DNA from: a virus
Lineage: Duplodnaviria > Caudoviricetes
Strand: one strand, 5' to 3'
DNA: 64,000 bases
IMG/VR virus record: IMGVR_UViG_3300036971_000130
Numbering within the stretch: position 1 is the stretch's first letter; each line of letters starts with the position of its first letter. Shown here in pieces: positions 8,701 to 47,002 of the stretch. Below the pieces are notes generated by a model. That model had not been told where the DNA came from. It was given only the letters and a program-made list of their open reading frames with translations, and searched no databases. A program made the position numbers and the translations under genes.

Positions 8701-9981
8701 TCATCCCTGACCGAACTTCGTGTACGTCCTCTCGAACGGTGTCGGACCGAACATCCAACGGTCGAGATCCGGCGGCGTCGAGAAGATCGGGGCGACATCC
8801 CTCAGCCAGTACGGCACGCCGTAGAGCAGCGACGAGTTACCGATCGCTGATGTGAACGGCTCGTAGTCCGAAGGAGCAAACGTCACCGATGACGGGTCCG
8901 ACAGCGACACCGGCTCCCAGAGGTTATCCCCTTCGCCGGTCGGTCGGATCGCCTTCATCTTCAGGAAGTCGTCAGAGAAGCCGCCCAACTCGGGGAACCA
9001 GTCCTTCCAGCGAACGACAGCCACCCGCTCACGGAGACGCAGACGCCGGGCGTTGATCCTCGGGTTCAAGGCGTCGAGGATGCCCTTCGTCAGCGGGTTC
9101 ATCACCTCGCTGTCACGGGCGTCGGGGTCACCGGCGTCGACGAAGACGATGATGGTTCCGGACTCGTCGTACTCGGCGTGGGAGAGGATCTCCAACCACT
9201 TGTCGAGCTTCGCTCTCGCTCTCGTCTGACGAGTCGATGTGGTGATCTCGAAGACGATGCGGAGGCCGTCGCCTCGAATCATCATCAGGTCACCAGCGCC
9301 CGAGGTCGTCACCGGATGGGTGCCGGTGACATCGAGCAGGTGGTGGGCTGCCATCCCTTCCCCGAAGACCGCCGCCGGGTTACAGAACTCAGCGATCCGG
9401 AGTCCCAGTTCGACCGACAGGATGTTGTGGCGGTCATGTCGTGGTCCGGCAGTCGGGTTGATCCCGCCGGTGACCTTCAGCCACTCGGTGAACGGCAACT
9501 CGGAGAGGATCGACGGGATCGAACGGTCACGGGTCATCCGCCAGACCATCGGCACGCCAGCGGCGTTGATCGAGAACCGACCTCGTTCAGCGAGGTGACC
9601 TGACCACAGATGACGGAGCGGTAGGGGAACCTCCGCTCGTCGTCCGCCCGGCTGGTACATCTTCGAGTCCCACCCTCCGAACGCAGCAAGCTGGTCCGAG
9701 GTCCCGGTGCGCCACATCATCAGAGCGCCGAGCGCCTTGCGGGCATCCTCGTCGGTGGACTTGAAGGCTTCGACAGCGATCTCCGGCGTGTCCCGCTTGT
9801 CTCTGAAGGTCATCCGGCTGATCCCGGCCTTCGCACGACGTTCAGCGAGACGACGTGATTCCCAGGAGACCTGAGAACTGTCACCCCAGAGACCGGCCCA
9901 GAACGGATCGACTCGGTTCTCGGACCGGTGCAACCGGTTGGGGACGACCGAATGGGCGTCCTCGAAGTACGTGACCGTCAT
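8701..9981 (-). CDS. Replication-relaxation-family-like protein (wHTH plus PD-(D/E)xK), candidate relaxase
   Basis: TSDQLAAF helix, RHDRHNIL, GDLMMIRGDGLRIVFEIT; near VirD4-like ATPase. Confidence 0.55.
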   Translation of the reverse strand: MTVTYFEDAHSVVPNRLHRSENRVDPFWAGLWGDSSQVSWESRRLAERRAKAGISRMTFRDKRDTPEIAVEAFKSTDEDARKALGALMMWRTGTSDQLAAFGGWDSKMYQPGGRRAEVPLPLRHLWSGHLAERGRFSINAAGVPMVWRMTRDRSIPSILSELPFTEWLKVTGGINPTAGPRHDRHNILSVELGLRIAEFCNPAAVFGEGMAAHHLLDVTGTHPVTTSGAGDLMMIRGDGLRIVFEITTSTRQTRARAKLDKWLEILSHAEYDESGTIIVFVDAGDPDARDSEVMNPLTKGILDALNPRINARRLRLRERVAVVRWKDWFPELGGFSDDFLKMKAIRPTGEGDNLWEPVSLSDPSSVTFAPSDYEPFTSAIGNSSLLYGVPYWLRDVAPIFSTPPDLDRWMFGPTPFERTYTKFGQG

Positions 9982-10780: not shown

Positions 10781-13272
10781 GGACTGAGTCTACCATCTGG
10801 ACCCCAGCCCTGAGCTTTCCGGAACCGGGCGAGCGCCGCCCTGGTCGCTTCCGGGCCACGTTCACGAAGTCCATCCTCGAACGAGGCGAGCCTCAACATC
10901 GTAGTCGGTGGCCGTTGACCGTCGACGGTCGTCCTGATCGCAGCGGTGTACCGCTCCATGCCTGCGATGTCAGCCGAGGACCATTCCTCGCCGTTGAGCG
11001 CCAGGTCGGCAACGATGTCTGCGATGACCCGGTGGTTGTTCTGGGAGAAGGCCAGCAACGTGCCGAAGCCCATGACGGTGACACGGAGAGCGTCCGGCAA
11101 CTGCTCCGGGTACTGGGTGGCGAAGAACGGCTTGACCCCGAAGGACCGACCCTGGTTGCGGAGCCAGGACAGAACCTCCGACGAGTTGCCAGCGAGGTAG
11201 GTCAACTCGTCGGAGAAGATGGAGACCGAACGACCCTGGTTCTGCCATCCGGGGCACGTCTGCTCGATGGCGGTCTTCAGCCCGAACATCAGGAGCGACG
11301 AGAGAGCCTTCACCGACTCGGTGTCCATGATCTCACCCGATGACGAGTTCGAGGTGTTGATGATCACAGCACCGTGGTTGTCGAGCACCTGCTTCCAGGT
11401 GATCTTCTTGCGGTCAGGAGACCAGAACGGCTCCAACGCCATGAGCGCCTTGATCTTGTTGCGGGCGGCTTCGGTCTGGGTGCGTCGGACGGACTCGGAC
11501 ACCGGCTTGGCGTTGCCGAACCCGAAGATCGGGTTCAACTCCTTCACGACCTCACCGAGTTCGGTGAACGCCTTGTCGGCGTCGACCTTCGATCCGTCGG
11601 TCAGTTCCCGCTGGTGCGCCTTCTTGGCTTCGGCCTCTGCTTTGTCGGCGGCAACCGCCAGAGCGGTAGCGAGCCTCACAGCCTCAGCGTCGCCCTTGGA
11701 GCCGAGAAGGATCGAGGCGTACCCGAACGGGGAGAGGTTCGTGGGGACACCGGCCTCCGTGGCGATCTCCGGTGTCACGCTGAGAGCGGCCGGGAGGACC
11801 ATCTCGAAGGTCTCCGAGGAACGGCCCTTGATCTCACCCTCGTCGAAGGTGTACTTCAGCGCCGACAGCATCCAGCGAGCCTTCTTCGCCGCCGACCCTT
11901 CGACTCCGGCGAACAGGTCGATGGCGTAGGTATTCGGGTCGAGAGCATCGACGACGACCACACGATCACCGAACCCCTCGGACCACGCCTTGTACGCCTC
12001 GGCACCTGACCACTCCTTGCCCTCGAAGGCGATCAGAGCGTTGTGGGAACCAGGGGCACCGGGGATGCCGGAAGGCTCGATGCGGTCGAGAACCATCCAA
12101 GCCCACAGAGCGTGGATGAACCAGGACTTGCCGGAACCGGGAGCGCCGAAAGCGGAGATCCCGGCGAACAGATCACGGGCGGAGATGTGCACCGGGGTGT
12201 CGTCCGGACCACCGAAGCCGATGACCGGGCCGATCCTCGTGACGAGTTCCTTCGGGATGGCCCTGATCTCGTTCACGTTCGAGCCAGTCGCAGCGCCAGC
12301 GTGCGGAGCCACCAGGCCGATCGGGACCGTCGGACCAACGAGGAACGACGAGGTTGCGAGAGGGTACGAACCGGGGTCGCCTTCGGCCGCTCGGGTGCCA
12401 GCGATCTGCGCTGCCTTCGGGGACTTCGGCTTCTTCGGCGGGAACCGGCGGCTCAGCGACTTCGGGAGACGGCCGGTGGCGAGCGTCGACAGGGTCTTCG
12501 ACGACTGCGTCGGGATTACCCCGGTGGAGATGCCGACTGCGTAACCTGCGGGAACAGCCCCGGCTGCGTTCGCAAGCAGGAGGTCGCCTTTCGTCAGGTA
12601 GGCAGTGCCACCGAAAGCAGTTAGTCCGAGAACGGCGGGTAGGACGACGGCCTTCGCCGGAGCGGCGATCTTGACTCCGGTGGTGACATCGAAGCCGGGG
12701 AGCATGGCCGACACCTGCGACAGCATCGACTTCACTTCGTCCTTGCTGTGGCCTCCGGCGAACACCGAGATGACGACAGTTCCATCACTGAAGGCGTGGT
12801 GCGTCGGAAGTGCGGTGCCGAGACGGTGCTTGTACCAGCGGTGTGAACGGCGGATCTCAGCCCGCTTCGGCTGACGGATCGAGATTCCGACCCAGGACCC
12901 AGCCTGCATCATGCGGGCGAGACCACGGGACACCTCGGCGGGATCGGTTCCGGCCTGGGTGTCACGGGTGGCTGCACCCGGCTTCGCCACCAACCATCCG
13001 ACGTACGGGGCGTCGAGGTCAGGGAGACCGTCCGCCTGATCCGCTCGTGCGGCAAGCGAAGTGGCGAGGTTGATGGCTGCGTTCGACGCCTGCTGAGAAG
13101 CCGGTGCAACGAACCAGTCGGTGATCGCCTCACGGTCACGGGTCACGATGAGACTCACCGGACCGGTCTGATCGAGCGTGGAAGTGAACTGACGTGCCCG
13201 AGTCGACAAGGCTTGGAGGTTGATAGAAGCTCCCGCTGCACGAGACAGCTTCCAGGCGTTCAGTTGTTCCAT
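10777..13272 (-). CDS. VirD4/TraD-like type IV coupling ATPase
   Basis: TM hairpin, Walker A GAPGSGKS, Walker B IFSDEL, RNQGRSFGV, ATQYPEQL. Confidence 0.8.
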   Translation of the reverse strand: MEQLNAWKLSRAAGASINLQALSTRARQFTSTLDQTGPVSLIVTRDREAITDWFVAPASQQASNAAINLATSLAARADQADGLPDLDAPYVGWLVAKPGAATRDTQAGTDPAEVSRGLARMMQAGSWVGISIRQPKRAEIRRSHRWYKHRLGTALPTHHAFSDGTVVISVFAGGHSKDEVKSMLSQVSAMLPGFDVTTGVKIAAPAKAVVLPAVLGLTAFGGTAYLTKGDLLLANAAGAVPAGYAVGISTGVIPTQSSKTLSTLATGRLPKSLSRRFPPKKPKSPKAAQIAGTRAAEGDPGSYPLATSSFLVGPTVPIGLVAPHAGAATGSNVNEIRAIPKELVTRIGPVIGFGGPDDTPVHISARDLFAGISAFGAPGSGKSWFIHALWAWMVLDRIEPSGIPGAPGSHNALIAFEGKEWSGAEAYKAWSEGFGDRVVVVDALDPNTYAIDLFAGVEGSAAKKARWMLSALKYTFDEGEIKGRSSETFEMVLPAALSVTPEIATEAGVPTNLSPFGYASILLGSKGDAEAVRLATALAVAADKAEAEAKKAHQRELTDGSKVDADKAFTELGEVVKELNPIFGFGNAKPVSESVRRTQTEAARNKIKALMALEPFWSPDRKKITWKQVLDNHGAVIINTSNSSSGEIMDTESVKALSSLLMFGLKTAIEQTCPGWQNQGRSVSIFSDELTYLAGNSSEVLSWLRNQGRSFGVKPFFATQYPEQLPDALRVTVMGFGTLLAFSQNNHRVIADIVADLALNGEEWSSADIAGMERYTAAIRTTVDGQRPPTTMLRLASFEDGLRERGPEATRAALARFRKAQGWGPDGRLSP

Positions 13273-37466: not shown

Positions 37467-38102
37467 ATGCTGACCATCGAGGTCCGCCCCGGCGAGGGAG
37501 GCGAAGACGCAGAGGCGTTCGCTTCCGAACTCGTCACAACCATCACGTCCATCGTCCGCCGTCTCGGCGGTGACAGCACCACCGAGACTGATGCCGCACG
37601 CACCACCACCATCTCCGTTCGAGATGAACTCGAACTCGACTGGCTCGCAGGTGTCCACCGCATCCAGCGCATCCCGAAGAACGACCGCCGAGGCCGACGC
37701 CACACGTCGACCGCCACCGTGAACGTCCTCGGGGAAGTCCACGTTGCCGAAGTCGACCTGACCTCGGTGCGCTACGAGATGTTTTCCGGTTCGGGACCAG
37801 GAGGCCAGCACCGGAACAAGTCCCAGAACTGCGTGCGAGCCATCCACCCGTCCGGTGTCACCGCAACATCGACCGAGCACCGCTCCCAGTTCCAGAACCA
37901 GAAGGCAGCGACCGCAGAACTCGTCAGACGGCTACAGGAGCAGTCAGAGTCCGATGCCGCTGACGCCGTGAACAGTCAGCGCAACATCGCTGCTGGACGA
38001 GAAGCGAAGACCTGGACATGGAACACCCAGAGGTCTGAGGTGGTCGCCCATCACCTCGGACGAAAGTGGCCGCTCGGGCGGTTCTCGAAGGGTCAGGTCT
38101 GA
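37467..38102 (+). CDS. Class I peptide chain release factor homologue lacking domain 1 (PrfH-like architecture)
   Basis: EVRPGEGGEDA, GVHRIQRIP...GRRHTSTATV, GSGPGGQHRNK, RSQFQN. Confidence 0.9.
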   Translation: MLTIEVRPGEGGEDAEAFASELVTTITSIVRRLGGDSTTETDAARTTTISVRDELELDWLAGVHRIQRIPKNDRRGRRHTSTATVNVLGEVHVAEVDLTSVRYEMFSGSGPGGQHRNKSQNCVRAIHPSGVTATSTEHRSQFQNQKAATAELVRRLQEQSESDAADAVNSQRNIAAGREAKTWTWNTQRSEVVAHHLGRKWPLGRFSKGQV

Positions 38103-43052: not shown

Positions 43053-43265
43053 CTACCAGTACCAGAACTGAATCCAGACGGAGTGCTGCGAGAACCAGCG
43101 ATGGTTCGGGATCTCGTCGTAGTCCTCGTGGCTCAGAGCTTCCCTGACCCGTTGACGGTACGGACGTTCGTACTTCAGGCTCGAACGGTACATCCGCTCC
43201 AACTCGTCGTACCAATGAGGATCAGATCGGTACGCTCGGGGAGCGTCCTTCCAGGTGCGGGCCAT
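43053..43265 (-). CDS. Small basic MSRTxKD-family protein
   Basis: MARTWKDAP...VREALSHEDYDEIP. Confidence 0.75.
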   Translation of the reverse strand: MARTWKDAPRAYRSDPHWYDELERMYRSSLKYERPYRQRVREALSHEDYDEIPNHRWFSQHSVWIQFWYW

Positions 43266-43618
43266 CAGTAGCACTCCCAGTCAGCACCACGACGGTAGGC
43301 ACGACGGTAGTGGGGCATCGCGTCGTAGTCCTCGTGAGCGATCGCATCACGCACAGCGGCACGGAGACGGGGCTCACACGCCTTCAGGGTCCGAAGGAAG
43401 ATGGCGTGGATCTCGACCTGGCGCTGATCCCAGATGTCCTCGATGGGATCGTAGTCCTCGTTGTAGATGCCGGGGATGTTGACGTGTCGGCCGTTCTCGA
43501 AACGACCGCCGGGCTTCCGGGTCCAGTAGGACTCACGGGAACGCCAATCAGACGGCACACAGCCGTTCTTGCGATGAGCCTTCACGGCTCGGGGTGCATC
43601 CTTGAAGGTGCGGGACAT
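43265..43618 (-). CDS. Small basic MSRTxKD-family protein
   Basis: MSRTFKDAP...VRDAIAHEDYDAMP. Confidence 0.8.
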   Translation of the reverse strand: MSRTFKDAPRAVKAHRKNGCVPSDWRSRESYWTRKPGGRFENGRHVNIPGIYNEDYDPIEDIWDQRQVEIHAIFLRTLKACEPRLRAAVRDAIAHEDYDAMPHYRRAYRRGADWECY

Positions 43619-43697
43619 GTTGGTTCCTTGGGGTAGCGAATCAGGTACCTAACATGTCGAGCCTTCCGTTGAGCATGTGATCATCATGGGTGGTCGG

Positions 43698-43952
43698 TCA
43701 CCAGCAGCACGGACACGTCGGCCCGTTCGTCCAGGCCAGCTTCAGATCCTTCGGGATCATGTCGTAGTCGCCGGAGCGGATCAGTCGCCGTTCGAGATGA
43801 CGGCGTTGGCGAATGTGGGTTCCGAAGCGTGGCTTGATCCGGTTGGTCCTCCACAGGTATGGAGCGTTGCTCTGCCAGTCGGACGGGAGCGGTAGCCCCG
43901 CCTGCTCGTACGCCCTCATCTTCAGAGGCCGGTCCTTGTGGGTGCGACTCAT
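43698..43952 (-). CDS. Small basic MSRTxKD-family protein
   Basis: MSRTHKDRP...ERRLIRSGDYDMIP..CPCCW. Confidence 0.8.
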   Translation of the reverse strand: MSRTHKDRPLKMRAYEQAGLPLPSDWQSNAPYLWRTNRIKPRFGTHIRQRRHLERRLIRSGDYDMIPKDLKLAWTNGPTCPCCW

Positions 43953-43955
43953 CAT

Positions 43956-44306
43956 CTACCTCGGCGGTTTGCTCATCTTGCAGTGGTCGTTCGAGGAACC
44001 ACCGTCCCTCGTCAGAGCGAACTTCCTCTCATCCGGGATCAGATCATACTCCTGCCGGACGATCAAGTCACGCTCGGAAGGTCGGAAGGTCGAAGCGTAG
44101 AGCTTCGCTGCACCTCGGCGGTGGAACCCGTGGCTGTACGGGCCGTGCTTGCACGCTGGGTCGTAGTTCGGGCTCATCACCCGTCTGAACGGCCCATCAC
44201 CGACGAAGGAGATGATCTCACGTTCACGCCAGTCAGCCGGGGGTCGACGGCCGAGGTAGTCGTACTCCTGCAACGGGGCTGGACGGTCCTTGTAGGTGCG
44301 GGACAT
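43956..44306 (-). CDS. Small basic MSRTxKD-family protein
   Basis: MSRTYKDRP...ERDLIVRQEYDLIP. Confidence 0.8.
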   Translation of the reverse strand: MSRTYKDRPAPLQEYDYLGRRPPADWREREIISFVGDGPFRRVMSPNYDPACKHGPYSHGFHRRGAAKLYASTFRPSERDLIVRQEYDLIPDERKFALTRDGGSSNDHCKMSKPPR

Positions 44307-44356
44307 CGTGACCTCTCGGGTGGCGAACAGGACATCTTCACACACCTGTCAAGGGG

Positions 44357-44545
44357 TCAGCGCAGGCGCTCTCCGTAGTCCCAGAGGGCGGCGGTGTGGC
44401 AGTGCTTCCGGTCGTCCGGGATGTCGTCGTAGTCGCCGGTTGCGATCGCCTCACGCTCTAGGGTGCGGAGCTTGCCGTTGTACTTCTTCTTCTTCCGGCG
44501 TCCACGATCAGCCTTGATCGGGTCTGGGTTGTGTCGACGCCCCAT
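44357..44545 (-). CDS. Small basic protein, divergent family member
   Basis: MGRRHNPDP...EREAIATGDYDDIP. Confidence 0.7.
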   Translation of the reverse strand: MGRRHNPDPIKADRGRRKKKKYNGKLRTLEREAIATGDYDDIPDDRKHCHTAALWDYGERLR

Positions 44546-44736
44546 CAGAAGGAACCTCGGCAAGCGTTCTTGCTGGCAACGGCCTTGCCGTTCTTCTGGG
44601 TCCAGACCCGGCGACCGCCGTTGCGCCAACCGATGACGGAGCCACCGGCGGCGAAGTGCGTATCACGCTCACGCCCGGAGACGGCAGCCAGCATCTTCTT
44701 CTGGGCCTGCGCCTTCTTCTTGGACTGCTTGTTCAT
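44545..44736 (-). CDS. Small Lys-rich protein
   Basis: TTGACA-N17-CATAGT-N6-ATG promoter; tail KNGKAVASKNACRG. Confidence 0.75.
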   Translation of the reverse strand: MNKQSKKKAQAQKKMLAAVSGRERDTHFAAGGSVIGWRNGGRRVWTQKNGKAVASKNACRGSF

Positions 44737-44767
44737 GCCTCCACTATGGGTGGCTCAGGCCGTCCTG

Positions 44768-45169
44768 TCAAAGAGGTGCGTAGCAGGTGGCTCCGAAGAC
44801 ACCGCCAGACCTGATGCGCTGAAGGCACATCTCCACAGCGTCAGGCCAGGTGACCCCACCATCGAGAGTCCTCCGGGCGATCTCGTCATCCATGCGTGAG
44901 ACACACCAGTGGAACTCCCGGTCATGGAAGACGACGGTCGCAACCAAGGTCGGCAGGATCTCCGTCGGCATCCTCGTCGGCAGAGTCGACACCCGAAGGC
45001 CGATCTCGTCCAGTCGACAGGCGAGGATCATCGAGAGGACCATCTCGGTCTTCTTCGGGTCGCAGATGAAGGTCTGGGACGACACCTCACGTCGAGGGGC
45101 GGAGTGGACCGACACGCCACCGAAGGCAACAGCGAGCTTCAGGTAGTCGTGCGGGTCGATCTCAGCCAT
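44768..45169 (-). CDS. Hypothetical protein
   Basis: CATGAT-N7-ATG. Confidence 0.55.
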   Translation of the reverse strand: MAEIDPHDYLKLAVAFGGVSVHSAPRREVSSQTFICDPKKTEMVLSMILACRLDEIGLRVSTLPTRMPTEILPTLVATVVFHDREFHWCVSRMDDEIARRTLDGGVTWPDAVEMCLQRIRSGGVFGATCYAPL

Positions 45170-45197
45170 GCCTGCCATCATGCCACACAGGTCAAGG

Positions 45198-45419
45198 TCA
45201 GAACGGCCAGCAGCAGCGGTAGCGGCAGGTCTCCGGCGTGTGCTTCCAGGCGAGCTTCTTCTCGTCGACGACGACCCTCTCGAAGTCACCGACGGCGATG
45301 GCCGTGCGATCCGAGGTGCGACGACGGCGGACGTTGTTCTTCGTCGAGTGCCGAGCCTTCGCCCAGCGGGCGTTCGACGAACGCCGGGAAGTCGGAGAGT
45401 CCTTCTTGGTCCTGCTCAT
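45198..45419 (-). CDS. Small basic MSRTxKD-family protein
   Basis: MSRTKKDSP...DRTAIAVGDFE...CRYRCCW; motif at 45425. Confidence 0.75.
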   Translation of the reverse strand: MSRTKKDSPTSRRSSNARWAKARHSTKNNVRRRRTSDRTAIAVGDFERVVVDEKKLAWKHTPETCRYRCCWPF

Positions 45420-45503
45420 GGGTCCATCATGGGTTGTCCACCTACGAAGTCGTCAACCGGGGTTGCTTGGACACCGCTCGTCGTGGTACCCATGATATGC
45501 ACT

Positions 45504-46067
45504 ATGACATACACCATCGCAGGCACCAATCTCAGCATCGTCGCTGAGGAAGCGGCCGAGATCACGAGGGTCCACCCTCGTGCCGAGGTCGCCATCCAGT
45601 TCGCCACCATGTCCCATGGGGCGCAGACCTACGGGACCGGAGACAGCCGAGTCCCGTACATGGTCCACACGATCGGGGTCGCACACCTCGTCCTCCGCTG
45701 CGGAGGGACCGAAGCCGAGGTCATCGCAGCGATCCTGCATGATGTCGTCGAGGACACGCCGGTCAAGCTCGTCGCCATCCGTCGGATCTTCGGCCACGAG
45801 GCCGCAGGTCTCGTCTGGGAGGTCACGAAGGAGGAAGGTGTCGACCACCTGACCAAGATCGGTGATGCCGCTCTCGTGAAGCTCTGCGACTCCGTCTACA
45901 ACATCAGCCGGATCGGGGGTCTGAAGCCCGCCCGCAAGGAGCGGCTCGTCGTCAAGTACACCCGGAACTTCCAGGTGTTGCTCACTCGTCCTCGGCTCGT
46001 TGGTCTGGCGCTGCCCGGCGACGTACAGGAAGTCGTCAGCCGGGACAGCGCCGACTTCCTGGCCTAA
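45504..46067 (+). CDS. Stand-alone RelA/SpoT-type HD hydrolase (small alarmone hydrolase/Mesh1-like)
   Basis: FA..SH..Q...PYMVH..GVA...AAILHDVVEDT...VTK...VKLCD..YN. Confidence 0.85.
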   Translation: MTYTIAGTNLSIVAEEAAEITRVHPRAEVAIQFATMSHGAQTYGTGDSRVPYMVHTIGVAHLVLRCGGTEAEVIAAILHDVVEDTPVKLVAIRRIFGHEAAGLVWEVTKEEGVDHLTKIGDAALVKLCDSVYNISRIGGLKPARKERLVVKYTRNFQVLLTRPRLVGLALPGDVQEVVSRDSADFLA

Positions 46068-46477: not shown

Positions 46478-47002
46478 TCAGTCATCCCCGTCGGCACCGC
46501 AGGTGTGGCAGACTTCTTCTTCGGGCTCGACTTCGGGGTCCGTGTCGATACGGATGTGCCCGAGCACGATGTACCCGCCATCACGCATGCACCTGATGTC
46601 CTCGTCGAAGGTCACGAAATCATGCCCTTCGATCGGTCCTTCGACCGGGACCAGGCCGATCATCCCGGAGTCCACCGGGTACTCGTTGCCGTCGTCGCCG
46701 TAGTAGCGACCGTCGCCGTGGACCGTGTGGACGCCGACAGCGTGCCCGTCGCCGTGCGGTGCGACGATCAGGTTTTCGTCCTTGGTCGACTCACAGAAGT
46801 CGCTCCACTCACCGTCCTCGATCACGTAGCAGGGGTCACCGATGACGTAGGTGCCCGCCGGGAGCGTCACAACCCCCTCGTCGTCGATGATGCCGTATCG
46901 GGACGGGACAGGCAGATCGACCACTCCGTCTCGGTAGCTGTTGGGTGCGAACCGAGTGGAGTTGCTGGTTCCGAGGTCACGCTCACGCATCTGGTTGCTC
47001 AT
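46478..47002 (-). CDS. GDPCY...DSG family protein (paralog 2)
   Basis: LPAGTYVIGDPCY...GDGRY...VDSGMIGLVP. Confidence 0.75.
   Translation of the reverse strand: MSNQMRERDLGTSNSTRFAPNSYRDGVVDLPVPSRYGIIDDEGVVTLPAGTYVIGDPCYVIEDGEWSDFCESTKDENLIVAPHGDGHAVGVHTVHGDGRYYGDDGNEYPVDSGMIGLVPVEGPIEGHDFVTFDEDIRCMRDGGYIVLGHIRIDTDPEVEPEEEVCHTCGADGDD

What the first reader, a model, noticed from the sequence alone, without database searches (positions are those of the whole stretch)
43053..45419. Tandem array of six diverged small basic 'MSRTxKDxP...(E)R..I..xDYD.IP' proteins
Seen: six co-oriented paralogs of 62-117 aa with a conserved N-terminus (five of six) and C-terminal DYD.IP-type block, variable middles and Trp/Cys-rich tails (CPCCW, CRYRCCW), plus a seventh Lys-rich peptide (44545..44736). 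The array is divergent from a SpoT-type HD hydrolase. Established: small, basic, poorly structured proteins of this size include ribosome rescue factors (ArfA, BrfA, ArfT) that recruit release factors. Inference: a diversified set of ribosome- or RNA-binding peptides, possibly partners of the release factor homologue 5 kb away. I see no direct homology to ArfA.
Basis: partly seen in the sequence, partly recalled or inferred. Interest (0 to 1): 0.75.

Follow-up and report, generated by a model that had tools for sequence, protein, structure and literature searches.

The report
Six-gene array of an uncatalogued phage protein
Six neighbouring small genes on a giant actinobacterial plasmid-like element are real, diverged copies of an undescribed protein family. 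Relatives that share its fixed 12-residue start sit inside the tRNA gene clusters of large phages, so a role in the contest over the cell's translation machinery is likely but untested.

Summary
Six co-oriented minus-strand ORFs (62-117 aa) have a coding GC3 signature and are true paralogs. A profile built only from outside sequences picks exactly these six of 954 window ORFs.

They match no Pfam, PHROG or PDB family. They form a rare "DYD.IP" subfamily of 23 known members; the outside ones looked up were all metagenome singletons.

Their N-terminal motif MSRTxKDxP(YWV) also heads a much larger set of 66-260 aa proteins in uncultured viral contigs and in cultured Streptomyces and Microbacterium phages, all annotated hypothetical. 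In 14 of 20 sequence clusters these genes lie within 1.7 kb of a tRNA gene. The nearest tRNA was on the same strand for 26 of 26 genes that had one in the fetched DNA. RNA ligase, macro domain, PTH2 or RF-1 genes are often nearby.

The link between the window's subfamily and the long forms rests only on the first 14-16 residues and a similar overall layout.

The window has no tRNA, and linkage to the release-factor homologue is weak. AlphaFold gives an ordered start and one long basic helix, with no known fold.

Best guess (0.35): accessory proteins that bind tRNA, ribosomes or their attackers. The scan held no look-alike on other DNA.

The parts
43053..43265 (-). p1, 70 aa, starts MARTWKDAP and ends in a Trp-rich tail. 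Its ATG overlaps the p2 stop by 1 nt (the longer GTG start at 43274 is less likely).
43265..43618 (-). p2, 117 aa, starts MSRTFKDAP and has the longest variable middle. It is the best match to outside relatives.
   Evidence: (E 9e-7)
43641..43676 (-). 11-codon leaderless mini-ORF (MLNGRLDMLGT). It starts 6 nt after the CATGAT box and ends 22 nt before the p2 ATG.
   Evidence: read; promoter word
43682..43690 (-). Copy of the element-wide promoter word CCCATGATG. It heads the mini-ORF/p2/p1 unit.
   Evidence: 39 copies in the window against 1.8 expected
43698..43952 (-). p3, 84 aa, starts MSRTHKDRP with tail LAWTNGPTCPCCW. This is the protein that was folded.
43956..44306 (-). p4, 116 aa, starts MSRTYKDRP. 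GAGAGG lies 5 nt before its ATG.
44357..44545 (-). p5, 62 aa, with a degenerate start (MGRRHNPDP) and an intact DYDDIP block. Its ATG overlaps the stop of the Lys-rich ORF by 1 nt.
44545..44736 (-). Lys-rich 63-aa ORF, not a family member. It is leaderless behind CATAGT, with TTGACA 17 nt upstream, and is the first gene of the unit that includes p5, p4 and p3.
44742..44750 (-). Promoter word CCCATAGTG heading the Lys-rich ORF.
44768..45181 (-). Intervening ORF of 133-137 aa with no Pfam or PHROG match.
45198..45419 (-). p6, 73 aa, starts MSRTKKDSP with tail LAWKHTPETCRYRCCWPF. It is leaderless behind CATGAT-N6.
45425..45433 (-). Promoter word CCCATGATG heading p6, back to back with the promoter of the HD gene.
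45504..46067 (+). Divergent neighbour: an HD_4 (RelA/SpoT-type) phosphohydrolase of about 187 aa.
   Evidence: phrog_990, E 1e-26
37467..38102 (+). Truncated release-factor homologue (C-terminal part of PCRF plus RF-1), 5 kb away. Listed as context only; linkage to the array is not shown.

Best explanation
The six ORFs are expressed genes. They are a local six-fold expansion of the short "DYD.IP" branch of an uncatalogued protein family of large actinophages and related mobile elements. The wider group is defined by an almost invariant start, MSRTxKDxP(YWV).

Most likely they are accessory proteins that act on the translation apparatus. The fixed N-terminal peptide would dock onto something that does not vary between hosts: a tRNA feature, a ribosomal site, or a nuclease that attacks these. 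The long Arg-rich helix and the Trp-rich tail would add RNA or partner contacts. The variable middle and tail would set which target each paralog handles.

On this giant plasmid-like element the six copies are driven by three of the element's own promoter boxes. They would protect or retune translation while the element establishes itself.

Shown here: the genes are real, they are paralogs, the family exists, and genes sharing the motif sit in tRNA arrays. Inferred: any binding to RNA or ribosomes, and the direction of the effect.
For: - The genes are real and related.
- Three copies of the element's promoter word head the array, against 39 in the window and 1.8 expected by chance.
- Family size: a profile of the six found 13 outside relatives among 1.84 billion representatives, and 3 more turned up.
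- The N-terminal motif aligns with the long forms at hhalign probability 92-96%.
- In IMG/VR, 43 of 45 motif hits are ORFs of this architecture.
- tRNA proximity: 26 of 53 family genes have a tRNA or tmRNA in the fetched DNA, and the nearest one is on the same strand in 26 of 26. 14 of 20 clusters (40% identity or more) have a tRNA within 1.7 kb, mostly 28-300 bp away. A conservative within-locus placement test gives a combined p of 0.006 over 13 loci.
- Cultured phages: LuckySocke gp45 lies between tRNA-Arg(acg) and tRNA-Arg(tct), with Ro-like and RNA ligase genes near. A3Wally gp176 lies 103 bp before tRNA-Met, near an RNA ligase and an ADP-ribosyltransferase.
- L034, a DYD.IP member like the window's, has PTH2 and tRNA(CUA) directly upstream.
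- Window neighbours fit the same theme: a RelA/SpoT-type HD gene, a truncated release factor and a PARP.
- AlphaFold2 gives an ordered start (pLDDT 80-87 over the first 30 residues) and a long basic helix.
- The short forms are basic and Trp-rich.
- The family was found in 1 of 401 sampled genomes of one phylum, and that one was the seed genome. This fits a family confined to mobile elements.
Against: - The window has no tRNA in 64 kb, so the array itself is not tRNA-embedded.
- Beyond the first 14-16 residues, the window's subfamily and the tRNA-array forms show no significant similarity. hhalign on the tails alone gives 10% probability, and there is no edge between the two clusters once the start is removed.
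- Context for the window's own subfamily is known for only two places, the window and L034.
- tRNA arrays of large phages are also general dumping grounds for accessory genes, so proximity need not mean shared function.
- 5 of 20 clusters have no tRNA in the fetched DNA, including the most often sampled one (19 near-identical loci).
- No RNA-binding fold or motif was recognised.
- The long forms are near neutral in charge.
Confidence: 0.35

Rival explanations
1. They are generic anti-defence or host-takeover accessory proteins. They would inhibit host proteins unrelated to RNA, and they diversified in an arms race. Their place in tRNA arrays would reflect only that these arrays are hyperplastic accessory regions.
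For: - Tandem diverged copies with variable middles.
- The family is rare and patchy: all 10 outside members looked up are singleton clusters.
- It was not found in the cellular genomes sampled, apart from the seed.
- The neighbours are a mixed bag: PARP, HD, an MmcB-like nuclease, HNH and NUDIX genes.
- No RNA-binding fold was found.
Against: - The start of the protein is nearly invariant across phages of 38-70% GC. That argues for an invariant target, whereas host defence proteins vary quickly.
- The gene sits tightly against tRNAs and on the same strand in many unrelated clusters.
Confidence: 0.3
2. The shared N-terminal peptide is an address tag, for example for packaging into a capsid or for transfer with the DNA. 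The bodies behind it are diverse cargo proteins, much as phage internal proteins share a capsid-targeting sequence.
For: - Only the first 14-16 residues are significantly shared between the subfamilies.
- At least three body types with no detectable sequence relation carry the motif.
- Earlier notes of this scan describe a different shared N-terminal tag on unrelated proteins of the same element (I did not check this).
Against: - Nearly all carriers also share the same layout after the tag: a basic helix, then an acidic D.D patch, then an aromatic C-terminus. The C-terminal Trp is nearly invariant. That fits diverged homologues better than unrelated cargo.
- AlphaFold2 gives the N-terminal stretch pLDDT 70-87 in both models, so it is not predicted as a floppy tag.
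- No protein longer than 451 aa scored against the family profile.
Confidence: 0.1
3. They are small DNA-binding regulators or nucleoid-type proteins of the element. The basic helix would bind DNA.
For: - Basic charge in the short forms.
- A long Arg-rich helix.
- Small size and several copies.
Against: - No HTH, RHH or other DNA-binding family was recognised.
- The long forms are near neutral.
- Nothing in a DNA-binding role explains the tRNA-array position.
- I did not look for repeated operator-like words around the array, beyond the element-wide promoter word.
Confidence: 0.1
4. One reading: they are ArfA/BrfA-like ribosome-rescue adaptors that recruit the nearby truncated release factor to stalled ribosomes.
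For: - A truncated release factor lies 5 kb away.
- L034 has PTH2 0.5 kb upstream.
- L067 has an RF-1 domain ORF in the same tRNA array.
- The proteins are small and basic.
Against: - An RF-1 type neighbour was seen in 1 fetched locus besides the window.
- The release factor is in a separate unit on the other strand.
- No similarity to any solved structure's sequence at E up to 1, and no ArfA-type Pfam hit.
- The conserved, ordered end is the N-terminus. From recall, the known adaptors work through a basic C-terminal tail.
- Six copies are hard to explain for a single adaptor role.
Confidence: 0.07
5. They are precursor peptides of a ribosomally made natural product. A conserved leader would be followed by variable Cys/Trp-rich cores.
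For: - A tandem array of diverged small ORFs with conserved N-termini and variable C-terminal tails. CPCCW and CRYRCCW are shared by p3 and p6.
Against: - No maturation enzyme, protease or exporter was recognised among the larger ORFs scanned between 36 and 49 kb.
- The most conserved block (DYD.IP) lies next to the supposed core.
- Relatives reach 260 aa with a confidently folded beta-hairpin.
- The composition is highly charged.
Confidence: 0.03

Closest known systems
Hypothetical proteins of cultured actinophages: Streptomyces phage LuckySocke gp45, its relatives in BRock (UniProt A0A1J0GW70, uncharacterized), Alone3, GiJojo and pSt2308, and Microbacterium phage A3Wally gp176 with relatives in Pumpernickel, Zooman, Cece and Big4
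   Same: - They share the N-terminal motif MSRTxKDxP(YWV); hhalign between the window's six and the long forms gives 92% probability over 14 residues.
- They share the overall order: a basic helix, then an acidic patch, then a C-terminal Trp.
- They come from actinobacterial mobile elements.
- All are annotated only as hypothetical.
   Different: - They are 145-260 aa long, with His/Cys-bearing middles and a long beta-hairpin.
- They are near neutral in charge.
- They are single-copy and embedded in tRNA arrays.
- Past the first ~16 residues there is no significant similarity to the window's proteins.
ArfA / BrfA / ArfT ribosome-rescue adaptors (properties of the known adaptors from recall)
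   Same: Small basic proteins, and a release-factor homologue is encoded on the same element.
   Different: - No sequence relation.
- The conserved end here is the N-terminus.
- There are six copies.
- The predicted helix is ordered.
- Linkage to release-factor type genes is seen in few loci.
Internal proteins of T4-type phages, which share a short N-terminal capsid-targeting sequence in a hyperplastic locus (from recall)
   Same: A cluster of small, often basic, fast-diverging proteins whose most conserved part is a short N-terminal peptide.
   Different: - No homology was tested or expected.
- Here the C-terminal layout is also shared.
- No prohead protease site or virion evidence is known.
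- The element here is plasmid-like.
Phage tRNA-array and RNA-repair islands: tRNA genes together with RNA ligase, macro domain, peptidyl-tRNA hydrolase and Ro-like genes
   Same: This is the genomic setting of the genes that share the motif.
   Different: It is a neighbourhood, not a protein family. No role for a protein of this kind in such islands came up in my two literature searches.

Membership tests
MSRTxKDxP superfamily (defined here, not a catalogued family) | N-terminal motif M-S-R-T-x-K-D-x-P starting at residue 1 | tested here: met
   Five of six paralogs carry it (p1 has A for S); p5 is degenerate, MGRRHNPDP. hhalign of the six against 25 long forms gives 92% probability, E 6e-7, over 14 columns.
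MSRTxKDxP superfamily (defined here) | C-terminal layout: Arg-rich helix, then an acidic (D/E)x(D/E) patch, then a Trp within the last ~15 residues | tested here: inconclusive
   The pattern is visible in 5 of 6 (p4 lacks the terminal Trp). Tail-only profile comparison of short against long forms gives only 10% probability.
MSRTxKDxP superfamily (defined here) | The gene lies inside or next to a tRNA array, on the same strand as the tRNAs | tested here: not met
   No tRNA in the 64-kb window. Earlier notes place the element's main tRNA array about 13 kb beyond the window's end (I did not check this).
DYD.IP subfamily (defined here) | Significant similarity outside the N-terminal 20 residues, centred on R..ER.AI..(E/G)DYD.IP | tested here: met
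   All six fall in one 23-member cluster at phmmer E below 1e-3 with the start removed. The outside-only profile hits exactly the six, of 954 ORFs.
ArfA-type rescue factors (Pfam ArfA family and solved ribosome complexes) | Sequence homology to a known adaptor | tested here: not met
   No Pfam family passed its threshold for any of the six. A profile search of PDB sequences gave 0 hits at E up to 1.
ArfA-type rescue factors | Binds the empty mRNA channel and recruits a release factor to non-stop ribosomes | not testable with these tools
   Needs ribosome binding and peptidyl-tRNA release assays.
RiPP precursor arrays | Linked maturation enzyme, leader protease or exporter | tested here: not met
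   None was recognised by Pfam or PHROGs among the larger ORFs scanned between 36 and 49 kb. Unrecognised enzymes cannot be excluded.
Any Pfam-A or PHROG family | A profile match above threshold | tested here: not met
   Six window proteins, 10 short outside relatives, and 20 long or other forms. The best was phrog_31697 at E 0.008 for one outside relative.

The most novel reading that the evidence does not exclude
The invariant N-terminal peptide MSRTxKDxP(YWV) is a docking module for a universal feature of tRNA or of the ribosome. The proteins would then form a new class of factors, encoded by phages and plasmids, that guard, sort or disable tRNAs during infection or plasmid establishment. 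On this reading, the six paralogs of this element divide the work among different tRNA species or different host tRNA-cutting enzymes.
Probability: 0.22. Interest if true: 0.8.

Novelty: categorically new. Interest (0 to 1): 0.58.

Why it matters
Large phages and giant plasmids carry tRNA arrays. Current work treats these arrays as a way to outlast host enzymes that cut tRNAs.

A protein family that travels inside the arrays in many unrelated lineages, with a start that hardly varies, would be a first protein partner of phage tRNA arrays and a direct handle on how the arrays are used or protected. It is missing from Pfam, PHROGs and the PDB, and is labelled hypothetical in every cultured phage where it was found.

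Cultured Streptomyces and Microbacterium phages carry a single copy, so a knock-out test is feasible. The six-copy array here offers a natural series of variants for mapping which part sets specificity.

If the family turns out to be only another accessory gene family, the finding still adds a well-defined family and a diagnostic motif for annotating actinophage genomes.

Tried and rejected
Family and fold look-ups that gave nothing:
- Pfam and PHROGs on the six, on short relatives and on long forms.
- PDB sequence profiles.
- Foldseek against the PDB for both models.
- VIA-align wide for the p3 model: best Z 4.1, a single-helix match, which is noise.
- BFVD found only the BRock orthologue.
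- The ESM Atlas gave unnamed viral and actinobacterial clusters at 0.90-0.91, with recognition below the usual level.

Sequence searches that gave nothing:
- blastn of the region against phages: no match.
- tblastn of p2 against phages and plasmids: no match.
- tblastn of P0010: no match in plasmids; in phages only three E 0.2 hits inside an unrelated gene.
- tblastn of the L041 257-aa form and of the L052 form against phages: no match.
- Fused forms longer than 451 aa: none among 3913 candidates, which is weak evidence.
- The search for related loci with 4 sequences matched 49 and 93 pattern stretches, but none passed its tblastn check.
- The KDAP-type start has 0 matches in IMG/VR.

Ideas considered and dropped:
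- Homing endonuclease. The gene keeps the same place in all 9 members of the BRock-like cluster fetched from IMG/VR and in LuckySocke, and no nuclease family matched.
- TAG recoding around the tRNA(CUA) genes. ORF coverage barely changes when TAG is read as sense.
- Shared neighbours across lineages. Only a macro domain (3 lineages) and HNH (3 lineages) recur.
- The window's proteins shared no other protein with the first 44 loci by tblastn.

Literature:
- Two searches found no description of the family.
- For PMC7453282 I saw the search listing and the start of the abstract.
- For PMC7824862 I saw only three passages, all in its reference list.
- Supplementary files were not opened.
- This is not proof that the family is unpublished.
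Full report
**1. The observation**

One search lists six minus-strand ORFs at the stated places. Reading the DNA sets the likely starts:

| Gene | Coordinates | Length |
|---|---|---|
| p1 | 43053-43265 | 70 aa |
| p2 | 43265-43618 | 117 aa |
| p3 | 43698-43952 | 84 aa |
| p4 | 43956-44306 | 116 aa |
| p5 | 44357-44545 | 62 aa |
| p6 | 45198-45419 | 73 aa |

- The p2/p1 pair overlaps stop on start by one base. So does the pair formed by the Lys-rich ORF (44545-44736) and p5.
- In frame, GC3 is 0.75-0.88 and GC2 is 0.44-0.59, like the PARP and MmcB-like genes nearby.
- The alignment shows MSRTxKDxP in five of six. All six have R..(E)R..I..(G/E)(D/E)(Y/F)(D/E); the following x(I/M)P is present in five and reads RVV in p6.
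- p3 and p6 also share the tail LAW...P..C..CCW.

**2. The similarity is not chance**

- With the first 20 residues removed, all six still join one cluster with outside proteins, at phmmer E of 4e-7 to 8e-4 in a set of 50.
- A profile built from 35 outside sequences only hits exactly these six of the window's 954 stop-to-stop ORFs of 40 aa or more.

**3. Expression signals**

- The element-wide word CCCAT(G/A)(A/G/T)TG occurs 39 times in the window, against 1.8 expected. Earlier notes of this scan read it as a leaderless promoter.
- Three copies lie in the array on the coding strand:
  - one directly before p6 (CATGAT, six bases, then ATG);
  - one before the Lys-rich ORF, with TTGACA 17 bases upstream;
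  - one before an 11-codon mini-ORF that ends 22 bases before p2.
- So the array is at least three units: p6 alone; the Lys-rich ORF followed by p5, p4 and p3; and the mini-ORF followed by p2 and p1.
- A 133-137 aa ORF of unknown kind (44768-45181) lies between p6 and the Lys-rich ORF.
- The HD gene most likely starts at 45504, behind its own CATGAT box, back to back with p6.

**4. The setting**

- The window has 62% GC, no tRNA and no DNA match to known phages.
- Recognised neighbours are a WGR-PARP gene, a RelA/SpoT-type HD gene, an MmcB-like nuclease and a truncated release factor.
- Earlier notes call the element a giant actinobacterial conjugative plasmid-like element with phage-like genes, and place its main tRNA array about 13 kb beyond the window's end. 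I did not check these.
- p6's exact sequence is on record on a contig of 233,542 bases.

**5. The family**

- No Pfam or PHROG family matches.
- A word-index search with p3 found only itself.
- A profile of the six, run against 1.84 billion representatives, gave 19 proteins at E of 0.001 or better. Six are the window's own, and 13 are new proteins of 64-123 aa. A further search added three.
- All 10 that I looked up are singleton clusters from metagenome assemblies: Logan 8 (one also in ENA), ENA 1, NCBI 1.
- Their consensus is MSRTYKDAPY.VRA.R...P.DWRER, then a variable stretch, then R..ER.AI..EDYD.IP...R...W, ending aromatic.
- Short forms are basic (pI mostly 9-11) and have about 5-6% Trp.

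**6. A wider group sharing the start**

- Scanning for DNA that can encode the start found the following:
  - 16 genome and 28 metagenome stretches. Eight of these loci encode proteins of this architecture: L006, L031, L034, L035, L037, L041, L042 and L044. Two pairs among them are duplicates.
  - 45 IMG/VR stretches, of which 43 encode such proteins of 66-238 aa.
- These proteins begin MSRTxKDxPYWV. Many have H.H and Cys-bearing middles. They end with R...VR..L..A..DY, an acidic D.D patch and a terminal WWD, YYW or similar.
- tblastn finds them in cultured phages, always labelled hypothetical: Streptomyces phages BRock, LuckySocke, Alone3, GiJojo and pSt2308, and Microbacterium phages A3Wally, Pumpernickel, Zooman, Cece and Big4.
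- None has a Pfam or PHROG match.

**7. How firm is the link to the window?**

- hhalign of the six, or of 19 short forms, against 25 long forms aligns only the first 14-16 residues (probability 92% and 96%).
- The tails alone give 10%.
- With the start removed, the short DYD.IP cluster (23 members) and the long/other cluster (21 members) are not connected.
- So the window's proteins are members of the DYD.IP subfamily. Their kinship with the tRNA-array forms rests on the N-terminal module and a similar layout. It may be deep divergence, or it may be a shared module.

**8. tRNA association**

- ARAGORN (repeated) shows that 26 of 53 family genes have a tRNA or tmRNA in the DNA fetched around them. 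In 26 of 26 the nearest one is on the same strand.
- Of 20 clusters at 40% identity or more:
  - 14 have a tRNA within 1.7 kb, mostly 28-300 bp away;
  - one more lies 3.2 kb from a tmRNA, in a contig stretch with 28 tRNAs (L042);
  - five have none. These are a group of 19 near-identical loci, plus L035, L037, L053 and L076.
- A conservative test places the gene at random inside its own fetched locus. It gives a combined p of 0.006 for 13 loci.
- LuckySocke gp45 lies between two tRNA-Arg genes, with a Ro-like protein and an RNA ligase nearby.
- A3Wally gp176 lies 103 bp before tRNA-Met, near an RNA ligase and an ADP-ribosyltransferase.
- A macro domain gene directly follows the member in three lineages.
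- L034 is the only other DYD.IP member whose surroundings I could see. It has PTH2 (E 2.7e-6, above the Pfam cut-off) about 0.5 kb upstream and tRNA(CUA) 58 bp upstream.
- Several copies at one place occur only in the window (6), L041 (3) and L042 (2).
- Of 401 genomes sampled from the phylum of L006's genome, only that seed genome has a match.

**9. Structure**

- AlphaFold2 on p3 with 25 sequences gives mean pLDDT 75 and pTM 0.40. The start is ordered (block means 80-87 over the first 30 residues), there is a short helix at 10-18, and one long helix at 32-60 reaches 96.
- On the 169-aa L046 form with 38 sequences it gives pLDDT 72. The N-terminal secondary-structure elements are similar (a helical turn at 5-7, then a short helix at 10-14 against 10-18 in p3). 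A long beta-hairpin at 28-69 has pLDDT 95-98, and there is a C-terminal helix at 125-143.
- No solved or predicted viral structure resembles either, apart from the BRock orthologue.

**10. Reading**

- The start of the protein hardly varies in elements of 38-70% GC, while everything else drifts. This argues for a partner that is itself invariant.
- Together with the tRNA-array setting and the RNA-repair and peptidyl-tRNA genes around it, the most economical guess is a protein that binds tRNA, the ribosome, or an enzyme that attacks them. The variable parts would set specificity. This is inference; no binding was or could be tested.
- The main rival is that these are ordinary fast-evolving accessory proteins that merely live in the accessory-gene-rich tRNA regions.
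Only one fetched locus besides the window has an RF-1 type ORF. The window's factor is a separate unit 5 kb away. No likeness to known adaptors exists.

**11. Novelty and limits**

- The family is absent from Pfam, PHROGs and the PDB, and is hypothetical in GenBank phage records. My two literature searches found nothing on it.
- The scan's own notes hold no look-alike on other DNA.

Noticed in passing
window 43641-43676 (-): An 11-codon leaderless mini-ORF (MLNGRLDMLGT) starts 6 nt after a CATGAT promoter box and ends 22 nt before the p2 start. It may be a translational or attenuation control of the p2-p1 unit.
   Followed up: no
window 44545-44736 (-): A Lys-rich 63-aa ORF with a coding GC3 of 0.81 has the best promoter match of the region (TTGACA-17-CATAGT) and a 1-nt stop/start overlap with p5. 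It is not a family member and has no Pfam or PHROG hit.
   Followed up: partly
window 43698-43740 and 45198-45250 (-): p3 and p6 share a C-terminal extension, LAW...P..C..CCW, that the other four paralogs and the outside relatives lack. It might bind a metal or be a site of modification.
   Followed up: no
L042 1-9200: A 14-kb metagenome contig carries 28 tRNA genes and a tmRNA, with HNH, DUF4326 and NUDIX genes. It has two genes with the MSRT start: a 125-aa form at 12354-12731 and a 70-aa form with a GTG start at 9600-9812, 414 bp after the tmRNA.
   Followed up: partly
L034 1469-1543; L041 1021-1094 and 11706-11778: tRNA genes with a CUA anticodon (amber-suppressor type, labelled Pyl by ARAGORN) lie next to family genes on two unrelated contigs of 70% and 39% GC. 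Reading TAG as sense hardly lengthens ORFs in L041.
   Followed up: partly
L041 9504-11557 (-): Three tandem, strongly diverged long-form paralogs (193, 202 and 257 aa) lie on a 791-kb metagenome contig of 39% GC. Besides the window, this is the only array of more than two copies.
   Followed up: partly
L067 6718-7062 (-): A 114-aa stand-alone RF-1 domain ORF (E 4e-16) lies inside a 28-gene phage tRNA array, about 4 kb from the family member.
   Followed up: partly
L047, L049, L054, L060, L062-L064, L066, L070, L074, L080-L083, L085-L089: Nineteen near-identical 109-110 aa members (MSRTFKDRPYALIEDE...) come from IMG/VR contigs of 31-217 kb in several samples. None has a tRNA in the fetched DNA, so this is an abundant lineage that breaks the tRNA rule.
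   Followed up: partly
window 46478-47002 (-): A 174-aa ORF has no Pfam hit but matches phrog_20074 (unknown function) at E 2e-22, so it is a phage-type gene between the HD and PARP genes.
   Followed up: no
L025, L027, L033 and L024, L039: Two further small-protein types begin with MSRT(F/Y)KDAP but continue differently: one has ...SVRSVRRDPPDL.KLSRA..., the other ends ...EREYYD. They may be more bodies behind the same N-terminal module, or chance matches.
   Followed up: no
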